A stretch of DNA of 64,000 nt, from positions 21,293 through 85,292 of the forward strand of contig JACKGE010000002.1 of the NCBI GenBank assembly GCA_020632155.1. Direction: 5' to 3'. Positions 18,148-58,877 of this stretch are shown piece by piece. Under the pieces are notes generated by a model. It made no database searches and had not been told where the DNA came from. It worked only from the letters and a program-made list of their open reading frames with translations. The stretch's first letter is position 1. Every line of letters starts with the position of its first letter. The DNA is from Candidatus Nomurabacteria bacterium. Its GTDB lineage: Bacteria; Patescibacteriota; Minisyncoccia; Phycocordibacterales; UBA918. The position numbers and the translations under genes were made by a program.

Positions 18148-18169
18148 TACTGACTAGTTTAGCATGCTG

Positions 18170-19327
18170 TTACACACGGGTTTTTTGGTATTTAGAGACA
18201 TTGAGGACAATACCAACCGAAGCTAACGTACTAAGAAGTGCCGTACCCCCATGACTGATAAATGGCAACGTTAGTCCGAGCATTGGAGCTAGGGCTACCA
18301 TAGCGTACATATTAAGCATGGCCTGTGTGACAATAAGAGTCACGAACCCAACTGTCAGCAGCATACCGAATTGGTCTTGTGCATGAGTCGCCACCCGATA
18401 CCCTCGAAATGAAAAAGCTGCAAATAGAGCCACCAAAATGAAGCTACCAATAAAGCCAAATTCTTCTGCGTAGACCGCAAAAATAGCGTCACCAATTGGT
18501 TCAGGTAGGTACTCGAACTTTTGGATGCTTTGACCAAAACCACGACCGCTCATACCACCAGAGCCGACTGCAATCAAAGACTGTTGTACTTGATAACTAG
18601 AACCCAAGGGGTCGCTGTTTGGGTCAATAAAGCTGGTAATGCGATCCATGATGTAGGGGCGCATAACCGCAAGAACGGCAATAAGCAAAATGGCTAGTCC
18701 GCCAAGTATGGCAACATCACGCCAGCGACCGCCGCCAGTTATAAACATAGCGGCCGCGGCGCTAGCCATAAGCAGAAAGGTGTCAGTGTCTGGCTGCGCT
18801 AGCATAATGAGACCGACAATACCTACGATGGCAGCAAATGGTAAGGTGCCTTTTAAAAAATCATGAGTATGTTTGCTCATGCCGGAGAGCCAAGTTGCTA
18901 CATAAATAATAAATCCAAGTTTCAAAAATTCAGCTGGTTGAAACGAGAAACCCGCGATCTCGATCCAGCGCTTAGCACCCCCGTGTTCAAAACCAATCGG
19001 TGAAAATACCAATAGCGTCAATACAATGGACGCAAGAAACAAATAGAACGCAAAACGGCGCCAATTACGATAATGAATCTGGCTGGTAATGAACAAGGCT
19101 ACCGTTCCACCCACGATCCCAAACAACACTTGATTAAACGCCACCGAAGAAAAGCTAGCGCCACCACGGGCTAACAACCCAAGCGAGGCGGAAGTAAAGA
19201 TAAAAAACCCCACGATGACCAAAAGCACGGTGATAATAAGCAGAATACGGTCGACGTGTTTCAGCATACTCGTTAGATAAGTGCCAGTAAGATGCCGATA
19301 ATTGCAAACACAAAACCAAGCACCCAA
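18170..19327 (-). CDS. ftsW: SEDS-family lipid II flippase/peptidoglycan polymerase (FtsW/RodA)
   Basis: 10-TM SEDS protein between mraY and murG. The start is probably at 19267 (MLKHVD). Confidence 0.85.
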   Translation of the reverse strand: MGAWFCVCNYRHLTGTYLTSMLKHVDRILLIITVLLVIVGFFIFTSASLGLLARGGASFSSVAFNQVLFGIVGGTVALFITSQIHYRNWRRFAFYLFLASIVLTLLVFSPIGFEHGGAKRWIEIAGFSFQPAEFLKLGFIIYVATWLSGMSKHTHDFLKGTLPFAAIVGIVGLIMLAQPDTDTFLLMASAAAAMFITGGGRWRDVAILGGLAILLIAVLAVMRPYIMDRITSFIDPNSDPLGSSYQVQQSLIAVGSGGMSGRGFGQSIQKFEYLPEPIGDAIFAVYAEEFGFIGSFILVALFAAFSFRGYRVATHAQDQFGMLLTVGFVTLIVTQAMLNMYAMVALAPMLGLTLPFISHGGTALLSTLASVGIVLNVSKYQKTRV

Positions 19328-20343
19328 TACCGCATGGTTACTTTATGTCCTGGCCATCCAAGCGCTTCAAAATGATGATGCAGTGGCGCAATAAGAAGTA
19401 CCTTACGGCCAAAGAACTTTTTACCAAGTATCTGGACCACATTCATAATAACGGTGGCCACCAGTAAGAAACCAACTATAGGCAAAATAGAGACCCCTAT
19501 TCCCTCACCAAGTGCGTCGGTGCTAAACGCCACTACAGTAAGGCTCATGGTGAGAGCCATAATACCGGTCTCAGTCATGTAAAAACGCGCCGGTGGGATG
19601 TTAAACCACAAAAAAGCCAAGATACCACCAACTATGGTCGTACATAGTGCGGCGATGTCGTACTGTTGCTGCAAAAACGCTACGGCACTGTATGATGCAA
19701 AAATGAACATGAAAACGCCGCCGGCAAGACCGTCAATGCCATCAATGACGCTACTCATGTAAACACACATAGCAACAAAAATAAAAAATGGAATGAACCA
19801 GAGGCCGAGCTCTAGCGTGCCAAAGTTGAACAGGCTGACGGCGTGGACCCCAAGCTTTTCGTAGAACCACCACGCAGAGAAAGCGGCCGTTAAGCCAACT
19901 ACCAGAATGCGCTGTGAAAGCGGCAGTCCGCCGGCAAAGTGCTTGCCAGAACCGCGGATAGTGAGAAGGTCATCAAGAAAACCCACCGCGGCACCAATGA
20001 TAAGCGCCAAAAGCGGCAGCCACGTCTGTGATCGACTAAGAAAATTAAGGTTTCCCAGTACGCTGTCCGTAAACAGAACTGATAGTAGCCATAAGGCACC
20101 TGTTGTGAGTAAAATACTGCTCCAAATGACGACACCACCAAGACGAGGAGTATTTGTGTCGGTGTGCTCATGTATCTGGTTGAACAATGGCGTCCCTCCC
20201 CCACCATAACCAGCTACCTTACCGGACTGCTTTTTCCACGCGTGGTGTTTGTATAGATAGTGAGTAACGATAGGGGTAATGGCAATACCAATAAAAAAGG
20301 CTAAAGCGGTTGGCAAAAATACTTTAATTAAAAGTGGTTCCAT
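19273..20343 (-). CDS. mraY: Phospho-N-acetylmuramoyl-pentapeptide transferase
   Basis: MraY-like polytopic protein with the DD..D and HHH motif region (PLHHHFE). Confidence 0.9.
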   Translation of the reverse strand: MEPLLIKVFLPTALAFFIGIAITPIVTHYLYKHHAWKKQSGKVAGYGGGGTPLFNQIHEHTDTNTPRLGGVVIWSSILLTTGALWLLSVLFTDSVLGNLNFLSRSQTWLPLLALIIGAAVGFLDDLLTIRGSGKHFAGGLPLSQRILVVGLTAAFSAWWFYEKLGVHAVSLFNFGTLELGLWFIPFFIFVAMCVYMSSVIDGIDGLAGGVFMFIFASYSAVAFLQQQYDIAALCTTIVGGILAFLWFNIPPARFYMTETGIMALTMSLTVVAFSTDALGEGIGVSILPIVGFLLVATVIMNVVQILGKKFFGRKVLLIAPLHHHFEALGWPGHKVTMRYWVLGFVFAIIGILLALI

Positions 20344-20345
20344 AC

Positions 20346-21431
20346 TTATTGTGAGATTACATTACGAGCGTATTCGCTCAAGTGTACGACATCACTGAAG
20401 CGACCGTTATAGGTCGAGCCAAGTACGACAACAATGACCGGTCGATTAAGGCTGGCATCAAAAGCAATCGCTAAATTACCTCCGGCCAAAGTTGTGTACC
20501 CCGTCTTTGAACCGAGAATGCCAACAATGTCGTCGACAGTCTGGTTGGTATTACGTACCTGATGTACCACTCCGCTTTCACTCGCAAGCTGAGCATCAGT
20601 TTTGTTGGTCACCTCAAGTATGGTCGGCGCATGTTTAAGGATATATTCCACCAAAAAAGCTGTGTCACGAGCAGAACCATATGCTCCGGCTTCTGTCTCT
20701 GAAAGGTCGAGTCCGGTCGGGTTGCGATAGTAGGTTTGAGATAATCCGAGTTCATCAGCTCGGATATTCATTGCTTGCACAAATGTTTCGGTCGGGGCGC
20801 TACTGCTCAGTACAGCGCCAGCGGCGTTAGCAAGAGCAAACGCACCGTCATTAGATGAACTGATAAGCGTAAGGTCGCTCAGGTCCTCAGCATTAAAGGT
20901 TTCCCCGCTTGAAAGGCCACTCTCACCATCTTGGTCAATTGCACTCTCTGGAATAGTGATGGTCGAATTACTGGCCACAATCTCATGCGCGACTAAGGCA
21001 GTCATTAGTTTAGTGAGAGAAGCCAATGGCAGACGCTCATCGGGGTTTTTAGCATACAGGATACGCTGGGTATTCACGTCCCAGACAAAAGCAGCGGTCG
21101 CGGTAATGGTAACGTCATCGTTTGCGCCGCCACGCTGTAGAGCCTCTGGAGCAGTTACTGTTTCTGTGGCAGTGCTAGTGTTTGCCATTTGGTCAGTATC
21201 GGAATCATCTCCCAGAAGCGCTAAAACAGTTGTTACCAGCCCAGAACCAAAGATGACCAACAAAAGCAGTGCCAAGATCATCAGTTGTTGCTTGACTGGA
21301 ACAGTCTTTCGGCTTGGTGAAAGATCGTCTTCAAACAACGTTGACACATTTTCCTCTACAGTTGTTTCTGGTTCTTCATTCATACCGCTAGACCATTGTC
21401 TCTTCAGTTTTGGTACGTTCGTACGCATCAA
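20346..21431 (-). CDS. Serine-type D-Ala-D-Ala carboxypeptidase (S11, PBP5-like) with an N-terminal TM anchor
   Basis: SxxK active-site motif ASLTKLMTA. Confidence 0.75.
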   Translation of the reverse strand: MMRTNVPKLKRQWSSGMNEEPETTVEENVSTLFEDDLSPSRKTVPVKQQLMILALLLLVIFGSGLVTTVLALLGDDSDTDQMANTSTATETVTAPEALQRGGANDDVTITATAAFVWDVNTQRILYAKNPDERLPLASLTKLMTALVAHEIVASNSTITIPESAIDQDGESGLSSGETFNAEDLSDLTLISSSNDGAFALANAAGAVLSSSAPTETFVQAMNIRADELGLSQTYYRNPTGLDLSETEAGAYGSARDTAFLVEYILKHAPTILEVTNKTDAQLASESGVVHQVRNTNQTVDDIVGILGSKTGYTTLAGGNLAIAFDASLNRPVIVVVLGSTYNGRFSDVVHLSEYARNVISQ

Positions 21432-36922: not shown

Positions 36923-37159
36923 TTTGTTTTTATGTAAGTCAAAAATTAGAAAACATAGTCTTTACTTGAGTATTTTACGTACAAGAGTATTGTCAACTAT
37001 TGAAAAAAGTTGTGTACTAACAACTCCTCTTGTCAGATTGCTACAATGATGGTGCCACTGATGTTTCAGTGGGAATGTGCTGAGAATGCTCTCGTTAGTT
37101 TTCTCGCCAGCCTTGGAACTCTGGTAGACGTGCGCGCAAGCGCACCTCACGCCAGCCTA

Positions 37160-37320
37160 CTTAGGTTCTGTGTTGGACAAGTAGTGAAATGCACATGCAC
37201 CCTCGTGGTACATGGTCCGTGGAGGTTGGGTTCGTTCCTCGAACTTGATCGGACAGCAAAACAGTTTCCGCAACACAGACCAAAAAACTCCCTTCGGGGA
37301 GTTTTTTGGTACGCTGTTTC
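37160..37320 (+). ncRNA. Candidate structured RNA of about 150 nt ending in a strong intrinsic terminator; family unknown and strand assignment tentative
   Basis: Closing stem ggttctgtgttgg / ccgcaacacagacc enclosing several sub-hairpins (e.g. gtgcgc-GCAA-gcgcac just upstream, gttcg-ttcct-cgaac), then aaaaaactccc-ttcg-gggagtttttt at 37282-37307. Confidence 0.3.
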
Positions 37321-37376
37321 AACCTTAAAGGCTGGCGCCCCAAACGATAAAAATGAAGTGCGGAACAAGGCGGACA

Positions 37377-37422
37377 AGAAAAAAGACCCGAGTGGGGCAA
37401 CAGCCCAGGCAGGGTCTTTTTT
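37377..37422. terminator. Intrinsic terminator downstream of rpsI (minus strand); could also terminate plus-strand transcription
   Basis: aaaaaagaccc...gggtctttttt nested GC hairpin flanked by A and T runs. Confidence 0.65.
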
Positions 37423-37451
37423 CGTAGGACAACGCAGTTAAGCATTCATTT

Positions 37452-41077: not shown

Positions 41078-41194
41078 TTATCCTTGTCGCTGCTTATGAC
41101 GAGGTTTTTTCTTGTTGATAACATACACCTTGCCTCGTCGGCGAACGATAATGTCATCAGCGCTGCGCTTTTTGATCGATGATCGGACTTTCAT
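41078..41194 (-). CDS. rpmJ: 50S ribosomal protein L36 (38 aa); below the length cutoff of the ORF track
   Basis: Manual translation gives [38 protein letters not shown]; canonical L36 between infA and rpsM. Confidence 0.85.
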
Positions 41195-41211: not shown

Positions 41212-41270
41212 TTAGGTTTCAGGTTTTAGGACGTTGCAAAAAGCTCCGATACCTAAAACCTACAACCTAA
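41212..41270. promoter_or_regulatory. Imperfect 19-bp stem-loop (ttaggtttcaggttttagg ... cctaaaacctacaacctaa) in the infA-rpmJ intercistronic region
   Basis: 17 of 19 positions complementary; 21-nt loop; built from repeated GGTTTTAGG units. Confidence 0.5.
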
Positions 41271-41280
41271 TTACCCACTT

Positions 41281-41496
41281 TTATAAACGTTTGGTGATGC
41301 GACCTTTACCTCCGTAAGGGTCTGGAACAATAGCAACCTTATCACCAACCAAAACTCGAATACGAAACTTCCGCATCTTGCCCGCTAAATAGGCAAGCGT
41401 CATTTCGTTGGTGTCGTCAAGCACTACTTTAAAGAGCGCATTAGGCAGCGCCTCCTCCACTGTTCCGTAGACGAGGTTTTCTTTTTGTTCTGTCAT
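41281..41496 (-). CDS. infA: Translation initiation factor IF-1
   Basis: [28 protein letters not shown]...GKMRK S1-like IF-1. Start trimmed to the internal Met relative to the track ORF 41281-41517. Confidence 0.85.
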
Positions 41497-41559
41497 CAAA
41501 CGCGCAGAGTGTAACAAAGACTTACAAAAGCGTCAAGTCTTTAAAGACTAATAAATCAC

Positions 41560-42882
41560 CTATTCCCCTAGACTTTCCACAATTTTTATCTGGTCGAGGC
41601 TATCCGGATAAGACCGTTTCCAAAACGGCTTAATTTTTGCTTCCGCCCGCTCAATTGCAGGATACCCGCTTAAAATGGTGGTCAAAGCTGTTTTTGGAGC
41701 GCCCATAAGGTCAGTTTTGAGCTTCCCTTCGTCATAGGTCCACACAATTTGTGGCTTTCCTACAAGTTTAAAGTCAAACTGATCAACATTACCAAGGTCA
41801 GTTGTGCTACTGGTAGCGCTCGCGTAGGCAAAGGTAATAGCCCCAAGGTCTTGTATTCGCACTGGCTTTTGCTCGTACCCTGGTATAGTCGCCGCTGCGA
41901 TATAGGCAGCAAACTCATCTTCGCCAAAGATAGGTATCTGGAGCAAGGCTTTTTCTTTGATTGTCACTAGATTGTCCCCGTACTCAACTGCTGGCAGAGA
42001 CTCAAACGTAAAGGTGGTAGCATCAGGAAAGACCACAAATCCAGCTGGTTTTTCACCATCAACGCGCGACAAGAGAGCGTCTCGTAGCTCATTGTGCAGT
42101 GCCTGTTTGGCGGTTTCGAGCTCAGCGTCATCAATAATGAATTTTGGACCATTAAAGCCGCCTGTGAATGGTACAGTATTTTTGGCGTACAACTTCTCAT
42201 ACAACTCGGTAAAGCCGTTTTCTTTATACCCCGGTATGGTGAATGTAGTTGGTGCAAGATTGTATTCCTCACCCGGTTCGTCGGCAAATACCTCAGCCCG
42301 AATAGTACCGGCGATAAGTTCTCCCTCGGCATTTTTGTGGGCGCCTGGCACTACAACTGACTCGGTTATTCGAAATACTTTTCCGTCAGAAGACGCGAAG
42401 CGGGTATTTTTGATCAGTCGTTCAGTGTTTGCAGTTTCGTTATATATTTCTATTTCACCAGTGGCTTGCTCAGTCACTTCTTCTTCGCCAGTAGCGCTCA
42501 CTTGCCGCTCACCATCGGCTTCCAAGACCATCAGCTCATACGAAAGTTCGCCAACTTGCGGCGTGCGGTACGCAGTAAATGTAGCATTGAGATTAGGTTC
42601 GCGGTGCTTTGGGTACACGGTCACTTCAGCGCCGCGTAGTAGGAAACTCGCTCCAAACACTGCTACTACAAACAACAACACTGCCACAATGATCGTCCAA
42701 AAACTACGGCGTTTTTTTTCAGTGCCGTTTTCAATGGTCAATCGAACAGTGCCATCATCATCTTCTGTTACGGGACGTTTTTCAGGTGCCGATTCTACGT
42801 TCATTTCTCGCTGACTGGGTCTTGAACGCTTTCGTCCACCACCGGCAGGTCGAATGTCTTGCAGGTTCCATTTCTTTTCCAT
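41560..42882 (-). CDS. Hypothetical bitopic membrane protein: cytoplasmic basic N-terminus, one TM helix, large extracytoplasmic domain
   Basis: Single TM helix (WTIIVAVLLFVVAVFGASFLL) around residues 80-100; no recognisable motif. Confidence 0.4.
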   Translation of the reverse strand: MEKKWNLQDIRPAGGGRKRSRPSQREMNVESAPEKRPVTEDDDGTVRLTIENGTEKKRRSFWTIIVAVLLFVVAVFGASFLLRGAEVTVYPKHREPNLNATFTAYRTPQVGELSYELMVLEADGERQVSATGEEEVTEQATGEIEIYNETANTERLIKNTRFASSDGKVFRITESVVVPGAHKNAEGELIAGTIRAEVFADEPGEEYNLAPTTFTIPGYKENGFTELYEKLYAKNTVPFTGGFNGPKFIIDDAELETAKQALHNELRDALLSRVDGEKPAGFVVFPDATTFTFESLPAVEYGDNLVTIKEKALLQIPIFGEDEFAAYIAAATIPGYEQKPVRIQDLGAITFAYASATSSTTDLGNVDQFDFKLVGKPQIVWTYDEGKLKTDLMGAPKTALTTILSGYPAIERAEAKIKPFWKRSYPDSLDQIKIVESLGE

Positions 42883-42913
42883 AAAGTATGTCTATAAAGT
42901 ATACCGCTCAGTT

Positions 42914-44107
42914 TCATTCTAAACGAGCAGAAATGAGATTCTTGTGGAAAACATAGGCCGAAAGCAGGATTGCGGTGTCATTTGGACTATCTGTCGAAAA
43001 GAATTTTGAGGTCACAAAGTGGACCGTATGCTGTGATGAAGTGGCTTTTGTGGCCGCTTCTTTAAGAATCGTGGCAAAAAAGTTCTCAGTCAAAGCGTCT
43101 GTATGAAGGAAGATTGTTTTAGGAATCGCCAGTGTATCGCCGGTTTGTTTCATCAAAGCCTCCACTTTGCTTGCATAACTAGCAAGAATACTTTGCAGCT
43201 CTTCCGCTTTAGCAGCACTTAATGTTTTTGTAAGATCAGTACCGTTACTGCGCATATACCCCCACGCTTCATTATTGGAGACTTTGGTGAGTTCAGATAT
43301 TTCGCGAGCAATAGAATTGGCGCCAAAAGCGATATGGCTGGTGTGCATAAGAACACCCCCACGCACAATACCGATCTCAGTGGCTTCATTAGTAATGTCA
43401 ATTAAGCATATCTCTGAGGTGTCGGGTTTAAGGGCATCCATGCCTTTGTAAAAGCTGTACATAAAAGTACTCATAGACAACGTGGCGGTTGGCACCACTT
43501 TCTCTTGATTTTCCTTAAGACTTTCTATTAGTTGTTTATTGGCCACACCCTTTATTTGTGATAGAGAAAGCTTCCGCACTTCTTTATCGATTGGGTCAGA
43601 AATAACATAACCGTTAGCGGTCACGTTTGATATTTCTTCGACAATGGTCTCAAGTTCAAATAATTCAGTAATGTCAGTCTCAGCAAGTTCTGTTTTTGCT
43701 TTTTCCTTGGCTTTACTAAGGAGTTCAGTCAAAAGCTCTTTGCTTACCACAAAAGGATTTTCCTCGCTCACGGCCACCGTGCTGTTGATAGTGTACGCCC
43801 ACGGAGCACTGATCGAACAAAACATAGTGGTGAGCTTTGCTTGAGGATCATGGTCGCGAAGCGCTGCAAGACCCTTGCTGCCAAGCTCAAGAAATACGTT
43901 TAAAAGGGCTGTGTTAATAAGCTTTATACTGTTCTTTTGATCAAAAAAACTCCCAGAAGTGATGCGCTCACGGTGAGACCAAAGAATCGTCGGCAGTTCC
44001 ACAAGTGGGTCTGACGCAACAACAGCCACTCCGACGCTGCCGGAGCCGATATCTATTACCACCCCGTAGCGAGTATCAGGATTAGTCCGTAAAAACGAAA
44101 AGAGCAT
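42914..44107 (-). CDS. Actin-like ATPase superfamily protein (PilM/FtsA/Ppx-GppA-like)
   Basis: N-terminal phosphate-1 motif VVIDIGSGSVGVAVV and a later DIT/GG-like region; length about 400 aa. Confidence 0.4.
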   Translation of the reverse strand: MLFSFLRTNPDTRYGVVIDIGSGSVGVAVVASDPLVELPTILWSHRERITSGSFFDQKNSIKLINTALLNVFLELGSKGLAALRDHDPQAKLTTMFCSISAPWAYTINSTVAVSEENPFVVSKELLTELLSKAKEKAKTELAETDITELFELETIVEEISNVTANGYVISDPIDKEVRKLSLSQIKGVANKQLIESLKENQEKVVPTATLSMSTFMYSFYKGMDALKPDTSEICLIDITNEATEIGIVRGGVLMHTSHIAFGANSIAREISELTKVSNNEAWGYMRSNGTDLTKTLSAAKAEELQSILASYASKVEALMKQTGDTLAIPKTIFLHTDALTENFFATILKEAATKATSSQHTVHFVTSKFFSTDSPNDTAILLSAYVFHKNLISARLE

Positions 44108-44164: not shown

Positions 44165-46033
44165 CTATTCAAGCACTGCTTTAATGCGGCGTACACCAGC
44201 AGATGATGCTTCTTCTTTGGTGATGCGGTACGTGCCGGTGATGTTTTCAAGCTTTTCTACATGCGGACCACCACACAGCTCCCTTGAAAAGACTGTGCCG
44301 TCATTTCCGGTCATGGTGTATACCTTCACTTCATCAGGGTAGCGATCCCAGAAACTAGCTTCGATAGTTTTGTCCGATTGGGCAACATCTTTTGGCATCA
44401 TTTCAATAGTGACTTCCCCACCAGTTTTTATGGCACTGTTAACAAATTCCTCAACTTTGTCGAGCACGTCACGCTCAACTTTGCTGTCGTGCGTAAAATC
44501 AAATCGCAGGCGCTCACCAGTGATGTTACTACCAGCTTGGTGAACATGCTCACCAAGGTATTTTCGCAGACCAGCCAACGTAAGGTGGGTGGCAGTGTGG
44601 TACTGAACGACTTTATCGGAATGGTCAGCAAGGCCGCCTTTAAACTTTTGCTCTGCTCCCGCTCTAGACTCAGCGCGGTGTGCTTCCATTTCTGTGTCAA
44701 ACTCCTCTCGATCAATTGACAAACTTTTTTCTGCAGCCAGTTCCTCTGTAAGCTCGTATGGGAAGCCATAGGTGGTGAAGAGGACAAAGGCATCATGGCC
44801 ACTAATGGTTTCAGTGTTCGCTACCTTTTCAAACTCGCGCATGCCTTTTTCTAGCGTCTTACGAAACTGTTCTTCTTCTTTGGCTATAGCATCGATAATC
44901 TCAGTTTGCTTTTCAGATAAATTCACATAGTGAGTTTGGTAGGTCCCGATTACGCTAGTGGCCAAGTTCTTGAGTTCACCAGCTGGAATGCCGAGCACAT
45001 CAGCAAAACGTACAGATCGACGTAGTAAACGCCGTACAAAGTAACCTTGCTCGGTGTTGCTTGGATGTACGCCGTCGCCGATCATGAACACGGCTCCGCG
45101 TATATGGTCGGTTATAACGCGAAATGCCTCCAGATTATCCGCGTACTTTTTTCCAGACAAGTCCTCAATCTGTGACACCACGTTCCATAAAAGGTCTATT
45201 TTAAATACGTCACCGTCGTTATTAGTGGCGGCCGCAATGCGTTCTAGACCACCACCAAAGTCTACATTCTGAGCCGGTAGTCGCTCAAATCCTTGTTCGG
45301 TCTTTAAGTACTCCATAAAAACGGAGTTACCAATTTCTAGAAAGCGCCCGCAATCACAGTTGGGGTGGCAGTGTTCTCCCCACTTTGAATCGTGCTCAGT
45401 ACCAAAGTCGTAAAAGACTTCCGAATCAGGCCCACCAATTTCACCGATGGGCATTTTTTCCGGTTTTCCGGCTCGGCTCCACCAGTTCTTGCTGGCATCG
45501 TAGTAAAAGATGCGCTCTCCTTCTTTCATTCCACGTTCGTAGCCTTCAGCTTCGCTACCCATTTCACCGACTTCATGTGAGAGACCGCGAGCCTTGAATA
45601 GTTCTTGCCAGATAACTACAGATTCCGTGTCGCGCGGCACGTTGTTGGCCTCGTCTCCCTGAAAAACTGTTACGTAGATGCGCTTTGGGTCAAGTCCTAC
45701 TTCGTCTACTAAGAATGAATAAAACCAAGGCAACTGCTCTTTCTTGAAATAATCACCCAAAGACCAATTACCAAGCATTTCAAAAAAGGTGGTATGCCGG
45801 TTGTCCCCTACTTCTTCTATATCCTCTGCTCGAAAACACTTTTGTGAGTCGGCAAGACGAACGCCTTTTGGGTGTTTTTCGCCCATTAAGTATGGCACCA
45901 ATGGTTGCATACCACTGCCGGTAAACAGTGTGGTTGGGTCGTTCTCCGGCACTAGGGCAGAACTCGGAATCACCGCATGGCCATTTTTGGCCATAAAATC
46001 AAGATATTTTTGTCGAATTTCGTTTCCGGACAT
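44165..46033 (-). CDS. alaS: Alanyl-tRNA synthetase, short form with catalytic and editing domains but no C-Ala domain
   Basis: AlaRS N-terminus (FTGSGMQP, ...W.LGDYFK). Editing HxxxH (HTATHL) and CxxxH (CGGPHV) motifs near the C-terminus. 622 aa versus the typical ~870. Confidence 0.9.
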   Translation of the reverse strand: MSGNEIRQKYLDFMAKNGHAVIPSSALVPENDPTTLFTGSGMQPLVPYLMGEKHPKGVRLADSQKCFRAEDIEEVGDNRHTTFFEMLGNWSLGDYFKKEQLPWFYSFLVDEVGLDPKRIYVTVFQGDEANNVPRDTESVVIWQELFKARGLSHEVGEMGSEAEGYERGMKEGERIFYYDASKNWWSRAGKPEKMPIGEIGGPDSEVFYDFGTEHDSKWGEHCHPNCDCGRFLEIGNSVFMEYLKTEQGFERLPAQNVDFGGGLERIAAATNNDGDVFKIDLLWNVVSQIEDLSGKKYADNLEAFRVITDHIRGAVFMIGDGVHPSNTEQGYFVRRLLRRSVRFADVLGIPAGELKNLATSVIGTYQTHYVNLSEKQTEIIDAIAKEEEQFRKTLEKGMREFEKVANTETISGHDAFVLFTTYGFPYELTEELAAEKSLSIDREEFDTEMEAHRAESRAGAEQKFKGGLADHSDKVVQYHTATHLTLAGLRKYLGEHVHQAGSNITGERLRFDFTHDSKVERDVLDKVEEFVNSAIKTGGEVTIEMMPKDVAQSDKTIEASFWDRYPDEVKVYTMTGNDGTVFSRELCGGPHVEKLENITGTYRITKEEASSAGVRRIKAVLE

Positions 46034-53541: not shown

Positions 53542-54942
53542 CTACAAAGGTAATTCTCCAGTTGGTAGATTCGCTGGCGCTTCGCCACGGGTTGAACCGA
53601 CACGTGTGAGCGTTGGTGTCTGAGCTACCTGACCCGGTAAGTGAAACATGGTGGCGAGCTCCTCGACAGTAAATATTCTTGGGGAGTCGATACCGCATTT
53701 TGGAAAATACTTGCGCATTTTGTACTCTTTGAGTTCTTGTTTTCTGAGTGCATTTAAAGCTTTGACCTTACCGCCAGGAATAATGTCTTTGTAGTCAAAA
53801 TCCGTACGCCAACGAACACCAATGGCGTTTCTTGTATTGACGTCATATTGACTGAAAGAACGAATGATAGGATTGATGAGGTCACTGTTAAATCCCCCTT
53901 GATGATTTATGTACACCCACCGAATCGCACCTTTGTAGGCATATTTATCGGCATTACGTTCCAACGTCATGATGGTATCGCGCTCACCTGAAGTCAAGCG
54001 AGCCATTTCTTCTGTTTCTCCAGCTGCAAGTGGAGTGCGTTTTTCAGGGTCACGGTTCATTAATTTATTTATGTACTTAAACAGGTCATCCGACCAATTT
54101 GGACCTTCACCTAAGAGTAGCTGTCCATTCTTGAAACTATCACGTCGAAATGACTTGATGAGTATTTGCATGTATATACGCTCGTGCTGTTTGATACTAC
54201 CAAACACCTCCAGCATTGGTGTCATAGGGTCAAGCTTCTCCTCTTCTTTAGGTAGTTTATCAAGCCCATAGTCGATATATGTCTTAATTGGTAAAAAGCC
54301 GTCTTTCTTTTTACCCATGTGAACTGAAAAAACAGTTGTTTTACTGGGATCAAAACTAATTGGTACTTCACCTGCGTAATCTACTGGCTCTTCTATGATC
54401 TCCACTCCGGGGTACTGTGCGTACATATTGGCTTCAAATGCATCCCGTGTCTTTTTGGTCGGAACATTTACATAGAATCGTACTTCCCCGCCGATGGAAA
54501 CAATCTCTAATGAAAAGTCTAACGGTCTTTTTCCATCAAGATAGGTTTGCATCAAGTTATCAGGATTGGCGACATTATGTATTTGTGCCAGAACAAACTC
54601 CATCGCTTCAGGCGATTTAAACACCTCTTGCGGTGGAATAATACGCAATGTAGTACGACCTTGATTAGCCCAAAACTTTTTCCCCACTGCTTCGTCCCAC
54701 TTGCTAAAAAAAACTAAAAATAAGACTACCGGTAGCCAGATTGGTAGTAAAAAGATAAAAAACGAAAACGCATCAGCTGCAGATACACCAAAAAGAAAAA
54801 AGCCAAGTAAAATCAAAAAGAGATCAATGATGATCATCATTGGCCCGTAGTCCATGTCATTGTCGTCCATCCATGAAAAAACAGACGCTAAGATTGGTAC
54901 TTCCATTGTCAGTCTATTGTACAACACAAAACCAGCTGACAC
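53542..54942 (-). CDS. Hypothetical membrane protein (2-3 N-terminal TM helices plus a large soluble domain)
   Basis: ORF with hydrophobic N-terminus; no motif recognised. Confidence 0.4.
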   Translation of the reverse strand: MSAGFVLYNRLTMEVPILASVFSWMDDNDMDYGPMMIIIDLFLILLGFFLFGVSAADAFSFFIFLLPIWLPVVLFLVFFSKWDEAVGKKFWANQGRTTLRIIPPQEVFKSPEAMEFVLAQIHNVANPDNLMQTYLDGKRPLDFSLEIVSIGGEVRFYVNVPTKKTRDAFEANMYAQYPGVEIIEEPVDYAGEVPISFDPSKTTVFSVHMGKKKDGFLPIKTYIDYGLDKLPKEEEKLDPMTPMLEVFGSIKQHERIYMQILIKSFRRDSFKNGQLLLGEGPNWSDDLFKYINKLMNRDPEKRTPLAAGETEEMARLTSGERDTIMTLERNADKYAYKGAIRWVYINHQGGFNSDLINPIIRSFSQYDVNTRNAIGVRWRTDFDYKDIIPGGKVKALNALRKQELKEYKMRKYFPKCGIDSPRIFTVEELATMFHLPGQVAQTPTLTRVGSTRGEAPANLPTGELPL

Positions 54943-54976: not shown

Positions 54977-56008
54977 TTACTCAACGAGCATGTATGAACC
55001 GTTGGAAAGCCGTTTGAAAATGTTGGTGTCTTGTAGGTTGACCACAATAGTGTTGTCTTTGACGTAGCGCTCTTTACGAACCTTGTCGATAATTTCTTCA
55101 CGGGTAAGCGGGCCGTTCTTTTCAAGAATTTCGCGCAAGACATCTTTTACGACACCAGCAGAGTATCCCCATTCAGAAAGTGCGTAAAGACCGCGGCCAA
55201 CCAGTACAAAGCGCTCATCCTTAATGAGTTCGTTGTGGGTTGTGGCGGTGTGTGCTTTTTTGCCAAAAAGCTCGTTAATAGCCCCTGCTACTTCTCGGAA
55301 GTGCATTGGAGAGCCGTGGCGCTTTACTGCCAAGTACGCATAATCGCGAATGCCTTTAACGCGAACATTTGGGCTTTCGGCATGACCCCACTCACCAAGT
55401 GGATTATTAGTGATCTCTTTAGAAATAGTAAGCCAGCGCTTTAGTATCTGCTCATCGTATTTGTCAGCAATATCAATAAGTTGATCTCGGAAGCGAGCTA
55501 GGACTTCTTCTTCGGAAATAAGCTCGTCAGCAGCGAGGGACTGGTATACGTTCTTAAGGGCCTTTTCCACCGTCTCCGCTATTTTCTTTTCTGTGTACCA
55601 GCGATGTGCGTAGGCATTGTTTTCTTTGTTACGGTAAAACGGACTACCAAGGACTAGCAGGAAGTAAATGTGATTGCGGGTTGCTTGATCTTTCGTCAAG
55701 CTATCAAGCAGTTCATGTTCAGCGATAAGCCCACCGCCAAGTGAGACAATGGCTTCCTGAAGCTCGTCAAAGACGGATTGAAACTCGCTGTATACATCTG
55801 ACTTTTGAATAGACTGAATGCCGTAGTTCTCGATTTGACGCACTCGCTCACGTGTAATGCCGTAGGTCTGGCCAATGGCCTCTAGTGTATACGTCTCAGT
55901 TTCTTTACCAAGCCCGTAGCGCTTTTCAAGCACATCACGAGCACGCTCAGGAAGAGCGGCCAGTAGTTTTTTGGTTACTTGTTTTGGTTTAAACGTAATC
56001 ATAATCAA
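54977..56008 (-). CDS. Protein with an N-terminal sigma-70 region-4-like HTH followed by a ~250-aa domain of unknown function
   Basis: LPERARDVLEKRYGL...TLEAIGQTYGITRERVRQIENYGIQSI matches sigma70 region 4.2; regions 2 and 3 are absent. Confidence 0.5.
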   Translation of the reverse strand: MIMITFKPKQVTKKLLAALPERARDVLEKRYGLGKETETYTLEAIGQTYGITRERVRQIENYGIQSIQKSDVYSEFQSVFDELQEAIVSLGGGLIAEHELLDSLTKDQATRNHIYFLLVLGSPFYRNKENNAYAHRWYTEKKIAETVEKALKNVYQSLAADELISEEEVLARFRDQLIDIADKYDEQILKRWLTISKEITNNPLGEWGHAESPNVRVKGIRDYAYLAVKRHGSPMHFREVAGAINELFGKKAHTATTHNELIKDERFVLVGRGLYALSEWGYSAGVVKDVLREILEKNGPLTREEIIDKVRKERYVKDNTIVVNLQDTNIFKRLSNGSYMLVE

Positions 56009-56102: not shown

Positions 56103-58877
56103 CTAATCACTGGTGATGATGTTAAGAATGCGGCCCGGTACGTAAATGACTTTTCCAATGTTTTTATCAACTAAATACTTTTGGATGGAAGATTGTCCCT
56201 TGGCAGCAAGCAGCGCCTCTTCTTCACTAACATCAGGGGCAAGTTCGATAGCGCCACGCATTTTGCCATTTACTTGAACACCAATGGTGACCACGTCATC
56301 AATGGCCAGACTCGGGTCAGCAACTGGGAACTCTTCTAAGTGGACTGAGTTTGTCTTTCCTGCTTCGTGCCACAGTTCTTCAGTAAGGTGGGGCGCAAAC
56401 GGGGCGAGTGACTTAAGGAACATCTCGTAACTTTTTTTTGCAAGACCTTGTTTTTCTACTAAGTTCACAAACTGCATCATGGCACTAATCGCGGTATTGA
56501 ACTTGTACAGCCGTATGTCTGTGCGTAGTTTAAGAATGGTTTTATGTAGAGCTTTAGTTACTTCACTGTTTTCTGTTTCAACAAAATGTTCATGAAGGCC
56601 GTTAACACGCTCTAAAAAGCGACGAATGCCGGCAATGCCACCCATGTCCCACGGGTAGTTAGCCACCTCGCCGTACGGACCCATAAACGCAAGGTACATT
56701 TTTACGCTATCGGCACCCACTCTACTCACCTGCTCATCAGGATCAATGACGTTGCCTTTACTTTTACTCATCTTGTTTCCGTCTGGCCCTAGGATGAGTC
56801 CGCGATTGATACGCTTCGCGTATGGCTCATCGTCAACAACAAGACCAAGGTCAAACAGTGCTTTCTGCCAAAATCGAGAGTACAACAGGTGCATGGTTGT
56901 GTGTTCTGCTCCGCCAAAGTAGATGTCGATCGGCATCCATTTTTTTTGCTGCTCAAGTGCAGACAGTGCGTCAGTGTTCTCGTTATCAATGTAGCGCAAA
57001 AAATACCACGATGAGTCTACAAACGTATCGAGTGTCTCCACTTCTGGTGTCCAGCCAGCACCGAATAACTTTTCAGTACGCTCTTTTAGTTCTTTGCTTT
57101 TAGCCAGCGGAGCTTCTCCGGTTGGCTTAAAATCAACATCACTTGGCAACGTCCACGGCAGGTGTTCTTTTGGCACAGCGTGCGGCTTCCCTTCTGGATC
57201 GTAAACGATTGGAATCGGCACACCCCAGTACCGTTGTCGTCCTACCGACCAGTCGCGTAAGCGGTACGTGCTCGTCATACGGCCACCGACTTTTTTCACA
57301 ATAGCCTCTTTGGCATCTTCTGAGCTCATGCCGTCAAATTCTTCGGAGTTGTGTAATACACCGAGATCTGTATTAAAAGCCTTCTTTCCATGTAACGCCT
57401 CAAGGAGAACTCGAAGAGAGTCTGCCAAGTTATCTCTTTCAAGTAATTCTTCAATTGTTAATTCGAGAACAGCCTCACCTTCGTGCAATACGTAGTTACT
57501 TTGAATATCACTAAAATGCGTCGCTGAGATATAGCAGTCTGACTTTACTGAAGGATATGTATATGAACCGACGGCATCATATCCACGCAAATCAATCTCA
57601 AGTTCTTCGTTAATCTCTCTGACTACTGCACTTAGGACATCCTCGTCATTCTCAATTGCACCACCAAAAAGACCGATCTTCCCAGAATTTGTTTTTGCAT
57701 CTAAGTCTCGTAACTGCCAGAGAAATGTTCCAGGCTTGTCTTTTACTTCAAGTAACGCACCTGAGTGTGTAATTTTCTGAGGAGCAACAACTGACTTGAT
57801 CGCAATTCCGTATTTTTGTGCAAACGTAAAGTCTCGTTCATCGTGCGCTGGAACTGCCATAATGGCGCCAGTGCCATAAGACGCAAGTACATAGTCAGCA
57901 ATAAATACTGGTATTTCTTCATTGTTGGCTGGATTTGTAGCTGTGATACCTTCAAGCCGTACACCTGTTTTCTCCTTAGTGGCATCAAGTCGGTCTTGTT
58001 CGTTTTTTTGTGTACTTAGTACGATATATCGTACTACTTCGTCCCAGTTTTGTATCTGTTTCTTGTTCTTTTCCAAAAGTGGGTGCTCTGGCGCTAAGAC
58101 CATATAGGTAGCGCCAAATAGTGTGTCTGGACGCGTGGTAAAGACTGTCACGTTGTCACCAGTTGATAGTTTGAAGTCGATCTCAGCTCCTTTAGAGCGG
58201 CCGATCCACCTCCGCTGTGCTTCTTTGATGTGTTCTGGCCAATCAACCTTTTCGAGATCGTCTACCAAACGATCAGCGTAATTAGTGATACGGAGCATCC
58301 ACTGCGGCATTTCTTTTTTCTCAATAACGTCACCACTCCGTTCACAGGTACCGTCAGCCAAAACTTGTTCATTAGCAATAACGGTGTTACACCCTGGGCA
58401 CCAGTTGACTATACCTTTGCCACGAAACGCTATATCGTTTTCAAAAAACTGCGTAAACATCCACTGTGTCCATTTATAGTAGTCTTCATCGGTAGAACTC
58501 GTAGTTTTGTCCCACGAAAAGGCATTGCCCATGCTCTTAAGTTGGTTCTTCATGTGAGCAATATTGCTCTCGGTCCACGTCCGTGGGTCAGTATCGCGCT
58601 TAATGGCCGCATTTTCGGCTGGTAGACCGAATGCATCAAAACCCATTGGATACAAAACTTGTTTTCCTTGCATGCGCTGAAAACGTACATAAATATCAGG
58701 CACGGCAAAAGCGTGCCAGTGGCCAATATGGAGGTTTCCTGAAGGATATGGCCACTCCACCAGTACGTACTCTTTTTCTTTGTTTGTATCACGCTGTCCT
58801 ACTTCGTAGAGCTTTTGTTCCTCCCAAAGTTGTTGCCATTTCTGCTCAATAGCGGCAGCGTCGAACTTTTTATGCAT
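56103..58877 (-). CDS. leuS: Leucyl-tRNA synthetase
   Basis: PYPSGNLHIGHWHAF (HIGH) and KMSKSKGN motifs; 924 aa. Confidence 0.95.
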   Translation of the reverse strand: MHKKFDAAAIEQKWQQLWEEQKLYEVGQRDTNKEKEYVLVEWPYPSGNLHIGHWHAFAVPDIYVRFQRMQGKQVLYPMGFDAFGLPAENAAIKRDTDPRTWTESNIAHMKNQLKSMGNAFSWDKTTSSTDEDYYKWTQWMFTQFFENDIAFRGKGIVNWCPGCNTVIANEQVLADGTCERSGDVIEKKEMPQWMLRITNYADRLVDDLEKVDWPEHIKEAQRRWIGRSKGAEIDFKLSTGDNVTVFTTRPDTLFGATYMVLAPEHPLLEKNKKQIQNWDEVVRYIVLSTQKNEQDRLDATKEKTGVRLEGITATNPANNEEIPVFIADYVLASYGTGAIMAVPAHDERDFTFAQKYGIAIKSVVAPQKITHSGALLEVKDKPGTFLWQLRDLDAKTNSGKIGLFGGAIENDEDVLSAVVREINEELEIDLRGYDAVGSYTYPSVKSDCYISATHFSDIQSNYVLHEGEAVLELTIEELLERDNLADSLRVLLEALHGKKAFNTDLGVLHNSEEFDGMSSEDAKEAIVKKVGGRMTSTYRLRDWSVGRQRYWGVPIPIVYDPEGKPHAVPKEHLPWTLPSDVDFKPTGEAPLAKSKELKERTEKLFGAGWTPEVETLDTFVDSSWYFLRYIDNENTDALSALEQQKKWMPIDIYFGGAEHTTMHLLYSRFWQKALFDLGLVVDDEPYAKRINRGLILGPDGNKMSKSKGNVIDPDEQVSRVGADSVKMYLAFMGPYGEVANYPWDMGGIAGIRRFLERVNGLHEHFVETENSEVTKALHKTILKLRTDIRLYKFNTAISAMMQFVNLVEKQGLAKKSYEMFLKSLAPFAPHLTEELWHEAGKTNSVHLEEFPVADPSLAIDDVVTIGVQVNGKMRGAIELAPDVSEEEALLAAKGQSSIQKYLVDKNIGKVIYVPGRILNIITSD

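What the first reader, a model, noticed from the sequence alone, without database searches (positions are those of the whole stretch)
41560..44107. Actin-like ATPase plus bitopic membrane protein inserted next to infA, where secY-adk-map normally sit
The conserved cluster upstream of infA (secY, adk, map) is missing from this window. Instead there are two genes. One is a 397-aa actin-fold ATPase (VVIDIGSGSVGVAVV phosphate-1 motif; FtsA/PilM/Ppx-GppA-like). It is followed in PilM-PilN order by a 440-aa protein with a basic cytoplasmic N-terminus, one TM helix and a large external domain. No other pilus, divisome or polyphosphate genes accompany them. They could be a divergent FtsA/PilM-like cytoskeletal or assembly-platform pair specific to this lineage.
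Basis: partly seen in the sequence, partly recalled or inferred. Interest (0 to 1): 0.55.

Follow-up and report, generated by a model that had tools for sequence, protein, structure and literature searches.

The report
Conserved actin-like protein and membrane partner
Two neighbouring genes in an ultra-small (Patescibacteria) bacterium encode a so-far undescribed FtsA/PilM-type actin-like protein and a single-pass membrane partner; they stay together across most of several hundred related genome and metagenome loci sampled, are fused in one lineage, and probably form a complex across the membrane whose job is unknown.

Summary
ORFs 42914-44107(-) (397 aa) and 41560-42882(-) (440 aa) lie between alaS and infA-rpmJ-rpsM. 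The window holds no secY, adk, map, ftsZ or pilus genes.

- **Upstream protein:** it folds like FtsA, then PilM, with the extra subdomain (1C) those two proteins carry. It fails the curated FtsA and PilM models and has no membrane-targeting helix.
- **Downstream protein:** it has a cytoplasmic N-terminus, one TM helix and an ectodomain. Only a ~100-aa beta-barrel in the ectodomain resembles anything known (phage baseplate-J and GlxA barrels).
- **N-terminal motif:** its first residues carry a near-universal motif, KKWNLQDIKP here and x-Q-D-[IV]-x-P-P..RSIRxIP in distant relatives.
- **Pairing:** the genes are adjacent in 78/78 genome loci and 50/63 distant metagenome loci. They are fused into one 855-866-aa protein in one lineage. 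Their distances co-vary more than those of control pairs.

Best reading: a PilM-PilN / FtsA-FtsN-like module. The membrane partner's N-terminal peptide tethers the actin-like protein, linking it to an extracellular structural domain. This looks like a housekeeping envelope or division function of the Paceibacteria lineage.

The arrangement is ancestral to the lineage, not a recent insertion. The binding itself and the cellular role are inferred, not shown. No paper on this pair was found.

The parts
42914..44107 (-). Gene for a 397-aa cytoplasmic actin-fold protein of the FtsA/PilM class (a new family)
   Evidence: ORF. AF2 model pLDDT 87.6, pTM 0.87. Foldseek best hits are FtsA, then PilM. 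PF14450 scores 28.4 bits, below the cut-off of 31.8, and TIGR01174 scores 27 against 175.85. 280 homologues.
44027..44059 (-). Phosphate-1 motif, residues 17-27 (VIDIGSGSVGV)
   Evidence: D19, G21, S22 and S24 are invariant in alignment A1 and about 90% conserved across 127 near and distant family members.
43538..43810 (-). 1C-type inserted subdomain, residues ~100-190, with family-invariant P102-W103 and N165-G166-Y167
   Evidence: Secondary structure beta-alpha-alpha-beta-beta, inserted after strand 92-99. Only actin-fold proteins that carry a 1C subdomain (FtsA, PilM) top the fold search. Conservation.
43370..43405 (-). Non-canonical phosphate-2 motif, residues 235-246 (LIDITNEATEIG)
   Evidence: It aligns with E. 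coli FtsA VDIGGGTMDIAV. D237, E241, T243 and E/D244 are conserved in both clades.
41560..42882 (-). Gene for a 440-aa bitopic (cytoplasmic N-terminus) membrane protein, a new family
   Evidence: ORF. No Pfam or NCBIfam family reaches its cut-off. 7551 cluster representatives at E<=1e-3. AF2 pLDDT 83.
42847..42882 (-). Conserved N-terminal cytoplasmic peptide, residues 1-12 (MEKKWNLQDIRP); proposed docking site for the actin-like protein
   Evidence: W5, L7, Q8, D9, I10 and P12 are invariant in A2. The related motif phi-Q-D-[IV]-x-P-P..RSIRxIP occurs in distant members. The motif was found in 276 of 301 sequences, and most failures are truncated ones.
42637..42702 (-). Single transmembrane helix, residues ~61-82
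   Evidence: KD19 maximum of 3.04 at residue 64, and it is the only hydrophobic segment. EKKRRS lies on the N-terminal side. AF2 helix at 54-81.
42157..42468 (-). Extracellular beta-barrel module, residues 139-242, related to baseplate-J and GlxA barrels
   Evidence: PF21110 GlxA E 1.3e-4, hit by 13/32 members. PF04865 Baseplate_J hit by 9/32 members. PHROG_6 baseplate wedge E 2.7e-7. Foldseek hits to Mu gp47, A-1(L), Pa193 and diffocin wedge proteins and to GlxA.
44165..46033 (-). alaS, the conserved upstream neighbour (context)
41281..41496 (-). infA, the conserved downstream neighbour and first gene of the infA-rpmJ-rpsM-rpsK-rpsD-rpoA-rplQ block (context). A promoter-like site lies at 41508-41536.

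Best explanation
This is a lineage-wide two-protein module that spans the membrane.

**The cytoplasmic part.** The 397-aa protein is a cytoplasmic actin-fold protein of the FtsA/PilM class. It has the 1C subdomain and its acidic nucleotide-site residues are mostly kept. It has no membrane anchor of its own.

**The membrane part.** The 440-aa protein crosses the membrane once. At its extreme cytoplasmic N-terminus it presents a short, near-universal peptide, followed by a variable basic linker. Outside the cell it displays a ~360-aa beta-rich domain that contains a baseplate-J-type barrel.

**Proposed mechanism.** The actin-like protein is recruited to the membrane by clamping the partner's N-terminal peptide. 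PilM does this with PilN, and FtsA with FtsN, in the cleft between subdomains IA and IC. In GspL, and in the natural fusion found here, the link is covalent. The complex would couple a nucleotide-dependent cytoplasmic scaffold to an extracellular structural domain.

**Likely role.** The pair is single-copy, is present in most of the related loci sampled, and sits next to core translation genes. The role is therefore most likely housekeeping, in envelope morphogenesis or division.

**Shown:** gene pair, fold class, topology, motif, conserved adjacency, fusion, co-variation.
**Inferred:** peptide-cleft binding, ATP dependence, cellular role.
For: - **Fold.** FtsA and PilM hits at E 1e-13 to 1e-21 over the full length are 4-12 orders of magnitude better than any other actin-fold family. 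They include the complexes 5eou and 2ych (PilM:PilN peptide) and 7q6i (FtsA:FtsN 1-29).
- **No own anchor.** There is no hydrophobic segment. The C-terminal tail is only ~10 residues with a hydrophobic moment of 0.07-0.11.
- **Partner.** One TM helix, cytoplasmic N-terminus. The N-terminal motif is invariant in the near clade and recognisably kept in distant clades.
- **Adjacency.** The actin-like gene lies immediately upstream (gaps mostly 14-100 nt) in 78/78 GTDB-species loci with room. The same holds in 50/63 more distant metagenome loci and in four further contexts.
- **Fusion.** In L135 the two are one 866-aa ORF. It is backed by 13 full-length variants and by a 93%-identical 855-aa cluster from independent assemblies.
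- **Co-variation.** Distances of the two proteins correlate at r 0.90. The partial r after controlling for AlaRS and S13 is 0.58, against 0.02-0.41 for control pairs.
- **Precedent.** FtsN and PilN are bitopic proteins whose short cytoplasmic tails bind the IA-IC cleft (PMC7613929).
Against: - No direct test of binding was possible.
- In 11 of 63 distant loci the membrane gene abuts alaS with no actin-like gene within 5 kb. Its N-terminal motif is nevertheless kept. The motif may therefore have another partner, or the actin-like gene may lie elsewhere in those genomes.
- The phosphate-2 and adenosine motifs are non-canonical (DITxEATE, LHTDxxTE). Some lineages have lost key residues: DIRSSG in L090, and DIESGS / HVSGEVTE in the fusion. 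ATPase activity is therefore uncertain.
- The ectodomain shows no match to PilN/PilO, FtsN, FtsQ or MreC, so the cellular process is unknown.
- Mirror-tree correlations are not independent observations.
Confidence: 0.55

Rival explanations
1. The 397-aa protein is simply this lineage's divisome FtsA, highly diverged. The 440-aa protein is a lineage-specific late-divisome partner, an analogue of FtsN or FtsQ.
For: The best structural matches are FtsA (TM 0.58-0.62, E 1e-21). PF14450 is hit weakly by 31/32 members. JGI labels some homologues 'cell division ATPase FtsA'. FtsA binds the N-terminal tail of bitopic FtsN.
Against: It scores 27 bits against the TIGR01174 cut-off of 175.85. It has no C-terminal amphipathic helix. 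It is never next to ftsZ or a dcw gene in about 140 loci; the neighbours are always alaS and infA. The window's mraY-ftsW-murG block has no ftsA or ftsZ attached. Whether a canonical ftsA exists elsewhere in these genomes could not be tested.
Confidence: 0.2
2. The pair is the PilM plus PilN/PilO-like alignment subcomplex of the type IV pili that Patescibacteria use for host attachment and DNA uptake.
For: It has a PilM-like fold without a membrane-targeting helix. Its bitopic partner lies directly downstream and carries a conserved N-terminal peptide. PF11104 PilM_2 is hit weakly by 9/32 members.
Against: TIGR01175 scores 16 against a cut-off of 133. No pilB/C/T/O or pilin genes occur in the window or in any of 175 loci. 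The partner is about twice the size of PilN. Its ectodomain matches baseplate-J barrels, not PilN/PilO folds.
Confidence: 0.12
3. The 440-aa gene is a remnant of a prophage or contractile-injection baseplate (baseplate J), and the neighbourhood is coincidental.
For: Foldseek, PHROG_6 and Pfam similarity to baseplate wedge/J proteins.
Against: The similarity is confined to one barrel; whole-protein TM-scores are about 0.2. There is an N-terminal TM anchor. tblastn finds no match in 50,697 phage records. No other phage genes are present. Synteny between housekeeping genes is fixed across hundreds of species. GC content equals that of the flanks.
Confidence: 0.02
4. The 397-aa protein is a Ppx/GppA-type phosphatase, or another metabolic ASKHA (actin/sugar-kinase/Hsp70 fold) enzyme, unrelated to its neighbour.
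For: Its phosphate-1 motif resembles that of Ppx/GppA. Four of 32 members give weak PF02541 hits.
Against: Ppx/GppA structures match only at TM 0.34-0.36, about 11 orders of magnitude worse than FtsA. The 1C insertion is present. Conserved adjacency and fusion with the membrane protein argue against independence.
Confidence: 0.02

Closest known systems
PilM-PilN (type IVa pilus inner-membrane subcomplex; PDB 2YCH, 5EOU)
   Same: A cytoplasmic FtsA-like actin fold with a 1C subdomain and no membrane-targeting helix. The gene directly downstream encodes a bitopic protein whose extreme N-terminus carries a short conserved peptide. The gene order is the same.
   Different: The curated PilM models are not met. 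The peptide motif is phi-Q-D-I-x-P rather than the INLLP type (the latter recalled from memory). The partner is 440 aa with a baseplate-J-like barrel instead of a coiled coil plus ferredoxin-like domain. There are no pilO/P/Q/B/C genes nearby. The genes sit at the head of the infA-rpsM-rpoA block.
FtsA-FtsN (divisome; PDB 7Q6I)
   Same: FtsA gives the best fold match. The actin-like protein would bind the N-terminal cytoplasmic tail of a bitopic protein, where a conserved residue patch is followed by a basic stretch.
   Different: There is no C-terminal amphipathic helix, no ftsZ linkage, and the FtsA equivalog score is missed by far. The partner has no SPOR domain.
GspL / EpsL (type II secretion)
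   Same: In GspL an actin-like cytoplasmic domain is covalently joined to a TM helix and an outer domain. The 855-866-aa natural fusion found in one lineage (L135, P0388, P0389) has this layout.
   Different: Fusion is the exception here. There is no GspE/GspM context, and the ectodomain is unrelated.
Baseplate J / gp47 / gp6-type wedge proteins (PF04865, PHROG_6) and the GlxA beta-barrel (PF21110)
   Same: One beta-barrel of ~100 residues (residues 139-242), with the V-x-A-x-x-x-G-x-x-Y-N signature, is detectably related by sequence and by fold.
   Different: The protein is membrane-anchored and cellular, and is not part of any tail or injection gene set. The rest of the ectodomain has its own invariant motifs (NTRF, TGGFxG, RPFW..FP) and no match.

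Membership tests
FtsA (cell division) | Actin fold with a 1C subdomain in place of 1B | tested here: met
   Foldseek full-length matches to FtsA at E 1e-21, TM about 0.6. There is a beta-alpha-alpha-beta-beta insertion at residues 100-190.
FtsA (cell division) | Reaches the curated family score (TIGR01174 equivalog; Pfam PF14450) | tested here: not met
   27.1 bits against 175.85, and 28.4 bits against 31.8.
FtsA (cell division) | C-terminal amphipathic membrane-targeting helix after a linker | tested here: not met
   The protein ends ~10 residues after the last core helix. Hydrophobic moment is 0.07-0.11. No hydrophobic window exceeds 1.6.
FtsA (cell division) | Gene linked to ftsZ or the dcw cluster | tested here: not met
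   The neighbours are alaS and the bitopic gene, then infA, in about 140 loci. No FtsZ is present in the window.
FtsA (cell division) | Binds the FtsZ C-terminal peptide through subdomain 2B | not testable with these tools
   This needs a complex model or biochemistry.
PilM (type IV pilus) | Reaches the curated family score (TIGR01175; PF11104) | tested here: not met
   16.1 bits against 133. PF11104 gives only weak hits in 9/32 members.
PilM (type IV pilus) | No own membrane anchor; the downstream bitopic partner has a conserved N-terminal cytoplasmic peptide | tested here: met
PilM (type IV pilus) | Partner is PilN-like (~200 aa, coiled coil plus ferredoxin-like domain) and pilO/pilus genes are linked | tested here: not met
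   The partner is a 440-aa protein with a baseplate-J-type barrel. Foldseek gives no PilN/PilO hits. No pilus genes occur in any locus.
Ppx/GppA phosphatase | Ppx/GppA fold and family profile (PF02541) | tested here: not met
   TM 0.34-0.36 at E 1e-9. Four of 32 members give weak hits. In the PDB profile search only the phosphate-1 stretch matches.
Baseplate J / wedge protein (for the 440-aa protein) | Reaches the PF04865 score, or a global fold match | tested here: inconclusive
   PF04865 gives E>=0.004 in 9/32 members. PHROG_6 gives E 2.7e-7 over the barrel only. Foldseek probability is about 1 but TM-score about 0.2. The barrel is related; the whole protein is not shown to be.
Baseplate J / wedge protein (for the 440-aa protein) | Lies within a phage tail or contractile-injection gene set | tested here: not met
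   Housekeeping neighbours in all loci. No phage match by tblastn.
Anti-phage defence systems (PADLOC) | Match to any defence-protein model | tested here: not met
   No families for either protein.

The most novel reading that the evidence does not exclude
The pair would be a third, unnamed branch of the FtsA/PilM family. Together with a partner carrying a baseplate-J-like ectodomain, it would form a trans-envelope machine specific to, and nearly universal in, Paceibacteria. This could be the lineage's main membrane tether for division or wall growth, or the base of a surface structure used for the episymbiotic lifestyle. It would be neither a divisome FtsA nor a pilus PilM.
Probability: 0.35. 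Interest if true: 0.75.

Novelty: new variant of a known kind. Interest (0 to 1): 0.6.

Why it matters
Patescibacteria make up a large share of bacterial diversity, yet their cell biology is almost unknown. This is a single-copy gene pair with thousands of family members (7551 clusters at 50% identity for the membrane protein). It is placed at the head of a core ribosomal-protein / RNA-polymerase block. It combines an actin-like protein with an extracellular domain built partly from a phage-baseplate-type barrel. If the pair forms the proposed complex, it gives a concrete, testable entry point into how these ultra-small cells organise their envelope, divide or build surface structures. It would also add a new partner type to the principle of an actin-fold protein clamping the tail of a bitopic protein, known so far from FtsA-FtsN, PilM-PilN and GspL.

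Tried and rejected
- **Profile searches of PDB sequences.** Nothing significant for either protein.
- **NCBIfam, PADLOC, phage tblastn.** No assignment.
- **Rfam and tRNA scans of the window.** Empty.
- **Literature.** Searches on Patescibacteria/Parcubacteria with FtsA, PilM, baseplate and dcw, and a term search of the main text of the Southlakia Tn-seq paper, found nothing on this pair.
- **Pattern scanning.** The broad alignment A3 was too divergent, so a narrower one (A4) was used.
- **Paralogue search.** A search for additional FtsA/PilM-like paralogues in the window and the 175 fetched loci (about 1.9 Mb) found none.
- **Ppx/GppA, prophage remnant, defence system.** Considered and rejected; see the rival explanations.
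- **FtsZ-tail mimicry.** I considered that the N-terminal D-I-x-P motif mimics the FtsZ C-terminal DIPxF peptide, which would mean docking on subdomain 2B. This rests only on a resemblance recalled from memory and could not be tested.
- **Not possible.** Canonical ftsA/ftsZ/pilMNO or secY-adk-map could not be located elsewhere in the genome because there was no whole-genome access.
Full report
**1. What is there**

The minus strand of the window carries, in order:
- alaS (44165-46033, a short 622-aa AlaRS);
- a 397-aa ORF (42914-44107);
- a 440-aa ORF (41560-42882);
- infA (41281-41496 from its ATG);
- rpmJ (41078-41194);
- rpsM, rpsK, rpsD, rpoA, rplQ, rplM, rpsI, grpE, dnaK and dnaJ.

The intergenic gaps are 57 nt (alaS to the actin-like gene), 31 nt (between the two genes of the pair) and 63 nt (membrane gene to infA). 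No terminator-like site lies on the coding strand between the membrane gene and infA; the scan places one (42926-42904) across the stop of the actin-like gene, in the 31-nt gap. A promoter-like site lies just upstream of infA. GC content (0.45-0.47) does not differ from the flanks.

Pfam scans of the sizeable ORFs, plus synteny with called genes in related loci, show no SecY, Adk, Map, FtsZ, pilus or polyphosphate genes in the 64 kb. A fragment of the division and cell-wall cluster (mraY-ftsW-murG, a D,D-carboxypeptidase and an M23 peptidase) lies at 14275-21431, more than 20 kb away, and has no ftsA or ftsZ.

**2. The organism and the size of the families**

Identical or near-identical proteins are deposited as hypothetical proteins of 'Candidatus Nomurabacteria' or 'Kaiserbacteria' bacteria. 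Related loci come from MAGs labelled Paceibacterota, Parcubacteria, Kaiserbacteria, Nomurabacteria or Patescibacteria.

The membrane protein is the better conserved of the two: 52-64% identity among the top hits, against 36-47% for the actin-like protein. A profile of it finds 7551 cluster representatives (50% identity clusters) at E<=1e-3 and 2586 at E<=1e-30. No Pfam or NCBIfam model reaches its cut-off for either protein. No paper in the searchable library mentions the pair.

**3. The 397-aa protein**

The AF2 model is confident (pLDDT 87.6, pTM 0.87).
- **Fold search.** Against the PDB, Foldseek puts FtsA first (T. maritima, S. aureus, E. coli, Vibrio; E 1e-17 to 1e-21, TM about 0.6 over about 410 columns). 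PilM comes second (P. aeruginosa, M. xanthus, T. thermophilus; E 1e-13 to 1e-17). Ppx/GppA, EutJ, ROK kinases and dehydratase activators follow at 1e-9 or worse, with TM 0.35-0.45. MreB, ParM and actin are not among the top 50.
- **1C subdomain.** The model has a beta-alpha-alpha-beta-beta insertion at residues ~100-190, after the first sheet of subdomain 1A. This is the position of the 1C subdomain that defines FtsA and PilM.
- **Family membership.** It fails by sequence: TIGR01174 27 bits against 175.85, TIGR01175 16 against 133, PF14450 28.4 against 31.8.
- **No membrane anchor.** There is no hydrophobic segment and no C-terminal amphipathic helix. The chain ends about ten residues after the last core helix, with a hydrophobic moment of 0.07-0.11.
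- **Nucleotide site.** The phosphate-1 motif (DIGSGSVG) is canonical. The phosphate-2 motif is D-I-T-x-E-A-T-E, aligned with FtsA DIGGGTxD. The adenosine motif is L-H-T-D-x-x-T-E instead of L-T-G-G-G-A.
- **Conservation.** Across 127 near and distant members, the acidic residues D19, D237, E241, E/D244, D337 and D377 are kept in about 90%. Family-specific P102-W103, R46 and N165-G166-Y167 (in 1C) are almost invariant. Some lineages have lost key residues: DIRSSG in L090, and DIESGS / HVSGEVTE in the fusion lineage.

Nucleotide binding is therefore plausible for most members, but hydrolysis may not be essential.

**4. The 440-aa protein**

- **Topology.** It has one hydrophobic segment (residues ~61-82, KD19 3.0), preceded by EKKRRS and by a disordered, basic tail of about 58 residues. 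This fits a cytoplasmic N-terminus and an outside C-terminus.
- **N-terminal motif.** The first twelve residues are almost invariant in the near clade (M-x-K-K-W-N-L-Q-D-I-[KR]-P). More distant members (300-380 bits to the profile) have M-x-K-x-[ILV]-[ILV]-Q-D-[IV]-[VI]-P-P-x-[KR]-R-S-I-R-x-I-P. Anchoring on the shared phi-x-D-[IVM] core succeeded in 276 of 301 distinct sequences. Most failures were N-terminally truncated ORFs. The motif starts at residue 5-8 in the great majority.
- **Linker.** The stretch between motif and TM helix is variable in length and rich in K, R and P.
- **Ectodomain.** Residues 84-440 are modelled with high local confidence but low pTM (0.56), as expected for several domains on flexible hinges.
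- **What it resembles.** Only one module is recognisable, a beta-barrel at residues 139-242. The evidence:
  - PF21110 (GlxA barrel) E 1.3e-4, hit by 13/32 members.
  - PF04865 (Baseplate_J), hit by 9/32 members.
  - PHROG_6 (baseplate wedge subunit) E 2.7e-7.
  - Foldseek finds GlxA and the gp47/J-type wedge proteins of Mu, A-1(L), Pa193, XM1, E217 and diffocin, plus many BFVD 'baseplate J-like' models. Probabilities are about 1 but TM-scores are only about 0.2.
- **What it does not resemble.** There is no BLAST-level similarity to any of 50,697 phage records. The remainder has its own invariant motifs (NTRF, PGxxYN, TGGFxG, RPFW..FP) and no match. PilN, PilO, FtsQ, FtsN and MreC do not appear among the fold hits.

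**5. Is the pairing conserved?**

- **Genome scan.** A pattern-plus-tblastn scan of one genome per GTDB species found 380 relatives of the membrane gene, of which the best 80 loci were fetched. An HMM of the actin-like family finds a gene immediately upstream on the same strand (gaps mostly 14-100 nt) in 78 of the 78 loci with enough upstream sequence. infA follows immediately downstream in all 78 with room. alaS precedes in most.
- **Individually fetched contexts.** These show the same order alaS-X-Y-infA-rpsM. In the four contexts fetched from more distant representatives of the membrane family, the upstream 386-401-aa proteins carry no Pfam hit and score 106-197 bits against the family HMM.
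- **Metagenome scan.** A second scan seeded with a divergent sub-alignment gave 80 more loci at 36-51% identity. Counting these together with the six contexts fetched, the actin-like gene is adjacent in 50 of 63 with room. It is fused in one, separated by 806 nt in one, and absent within 5 kb in 11. infA is adjacent in 64 of 75.
- **The exceptions.** In most of the 11 loci without it (9 of 11), alaS lies directly upstream of the membrane gene, 9-368 nt away. The membrane protein still carries the N-terminal motif.

The membrane protein is therefore the more constant element. The actin-like gene is its usual but not obligatory neighbour.

**6. Fusion and co-variation**

- **Fusion.** In locus L135 the two proteins are one 866-aa ORF. 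The actin-like domain comes first, then about 40 linker residues, then the N-terminal motif (KKPPMQDVFPP...RSIRNL), the TM helix and the ectodomain. This is not a one-off error. The protein database holds 13 full-length 866-aa variants from ENA, JGI and NCBI assemblies. It also holds a second cluster of 855 aa at 93% identity whose junction is likewise in frame.
- **Why the fusion matters.** It is topologically possible only if the N-terminus of the membrane protein is cytoplasmic. It recreates the GspL layout.
- **Co-variation.** Over 86 non-redundant loci, pairwise distances of the two proteins correlate at r 0.90, the highest of all pairs tested. The partial correlation after removing AlaRS and S13 distances is 0.58. 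Control pairs give 0.02-0.41. This is supportive only, because the distances are not independent.

**7. How it most likely works**

The top structural neighbours include the very complexes that set the precedent:
- PilM with the N-terminal peptide of PilN (2YCH, 5EOU);
- FtsA with FtsN residues 1-29 (7Q6I).

Both peptides come from bitopic proteins with short cytoplasmic tails, and both bind the IA-IC cleft. FtsA additionally uses its own C-terminal amphipathic helix to reach the membrane (PMC7613929).

The protein here lacks that helix. Its partner offers a strictly conserved peptide at the right place. The two are sometimes fused. I therefore propose that the actin-like protein is tethered to the membrane by clamping this peptide, and that the pair forms a complex across the membrane.

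In that complex a nucleotide-dependent, possibly oligomerising, cytoplasmic scaffold would be coupled to an extracellular, probably oligomeric, structural domain. The tandem D/N-I-x-x-P repeats in distant members (QDIVPP and RNIPLP) might bind two protomers; this is speculation.

The binding mode, the ATP dependence and the oligomeric state are inferred. The cellular process is inferred only from context. The pair is single-copy, present in most loci sampled, kept next to alaS and at the head of the infA-rpsM-rpoA block, and unlinked to pilus, phage or defence genes. This points to a housekeeping envelope or division role.

**8. Rivals**

- **(a) A diverged true FtsA (0.2).** Best fold match and weak PF14450 hits. 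Against it: the equivalog score is missed by far, there is no membrane-targeting helix, and there is no ftsZ linkage. The decisive test, whether a canonical ftsA-ftsZ pair also exists in these genomes, could not be run.
- **(b) The pilus PilM/PilN pair (0.12).** Same architecture. Against it: no pilus genes in 175 loci, and the partner is unlike PilN or PilO.
- **(c) A prophage baseplate remnant (0.02)** and **(d) a Ppx/GppA enzyme (0.02).** Both are rejected on synteny, fold scores and the fusion.

**9. Comparison and novelty**

It works like PilM-PilN, FtsA-FtsN and GspL. It is not a member of FtsA or PilM by their curated models or by their defining accessory features. Its partner belongs to no described family and shares only a barrel with baseplate-J proteins. 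I rate it a new variant of a known kind. The family is large, and its role in a poorly understood radiation is open, so I give it moderate-to-high interest (0.6).

**10. Limits**

- No complex prediction could be run.
- There was no whole-genome access.
- Taxonomic labels are those of the depositors.
- The two locus scans return the best 80 matches each, so they under-sample the most distant parts of the family.

Noticed in passing
L135 3726-6326 (metagenome contig Ga0209542_10028871); proteins P0388, P0389: A natural in-frame fusion of the actin-like protein and the bitopic protein (866 aa). It is seen as 13 full-length variants, plus a 93%-identical 855-aa cluster, in independent assemblies. 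Its phosphate-1 and phosphate-2 motifs are degenerate (DIESGS, HVSGEVTE).
   Followed up: yes
L119, L128, L129, L143, L144, L145, L149, L151, L152, L156, L169: Lineages with no actin-like gene within 5 kb of the bitopic gene; in most of them alaS lies directly upstream of it. The N-terminal motif of the membrane protein is nevertheless retained.
   Followed up: partly
window 56103-58877 (-): The leucyl-tRNA synthetase (924 aa) gives a NUDIX-domain hit (PF00293, residues 378-459) next to its editing domain. This is an unusual insertion.
   Followed up: no
window ~41213-41276 (-), between infA and rpmJ: A stable RNA hairpin (MFE -30.9 kcal/mol, z -4.1, none of 200 shuffles as stable) lies in the 86-nt infA-rpmJ spacer. 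There is no Rfam match.
   Followed up: partly
window 53542-54942 (-): A 466-aa ORF upstream of the YceG-like gene has no Pfam hit. The syntenic gene in L006 carries DUF8128.
   Followed up: no
window 54977-56008 (-): A protein that combines a Sigma-70 region 4 domain with a HARE-HTH domain. No other sigma regions were detected.
   Followed up: no
window 18001-20000: An AT-skew spike (+0.265) coincides with the minus-strand ftsW and mraY genes. It probably reflects the T-rich codons of membrane proteins rather than a replication feature.
   Followed up: no
window 1-64000: No tRNA gene and no Rfam family reach threshold anywhere in the 64 kb. The ~530-bp gap between rpsI and grpE (36923-37451) has no convincing ORF on the coding strand.
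   Followed up: partly
window 44165-46033 (-): The AlaRS is short: 622 aa here and 556-668 aa in related loci. I did not check which part is missing relative to longer alanyl-tRNA synthetases.
   Followed up: no
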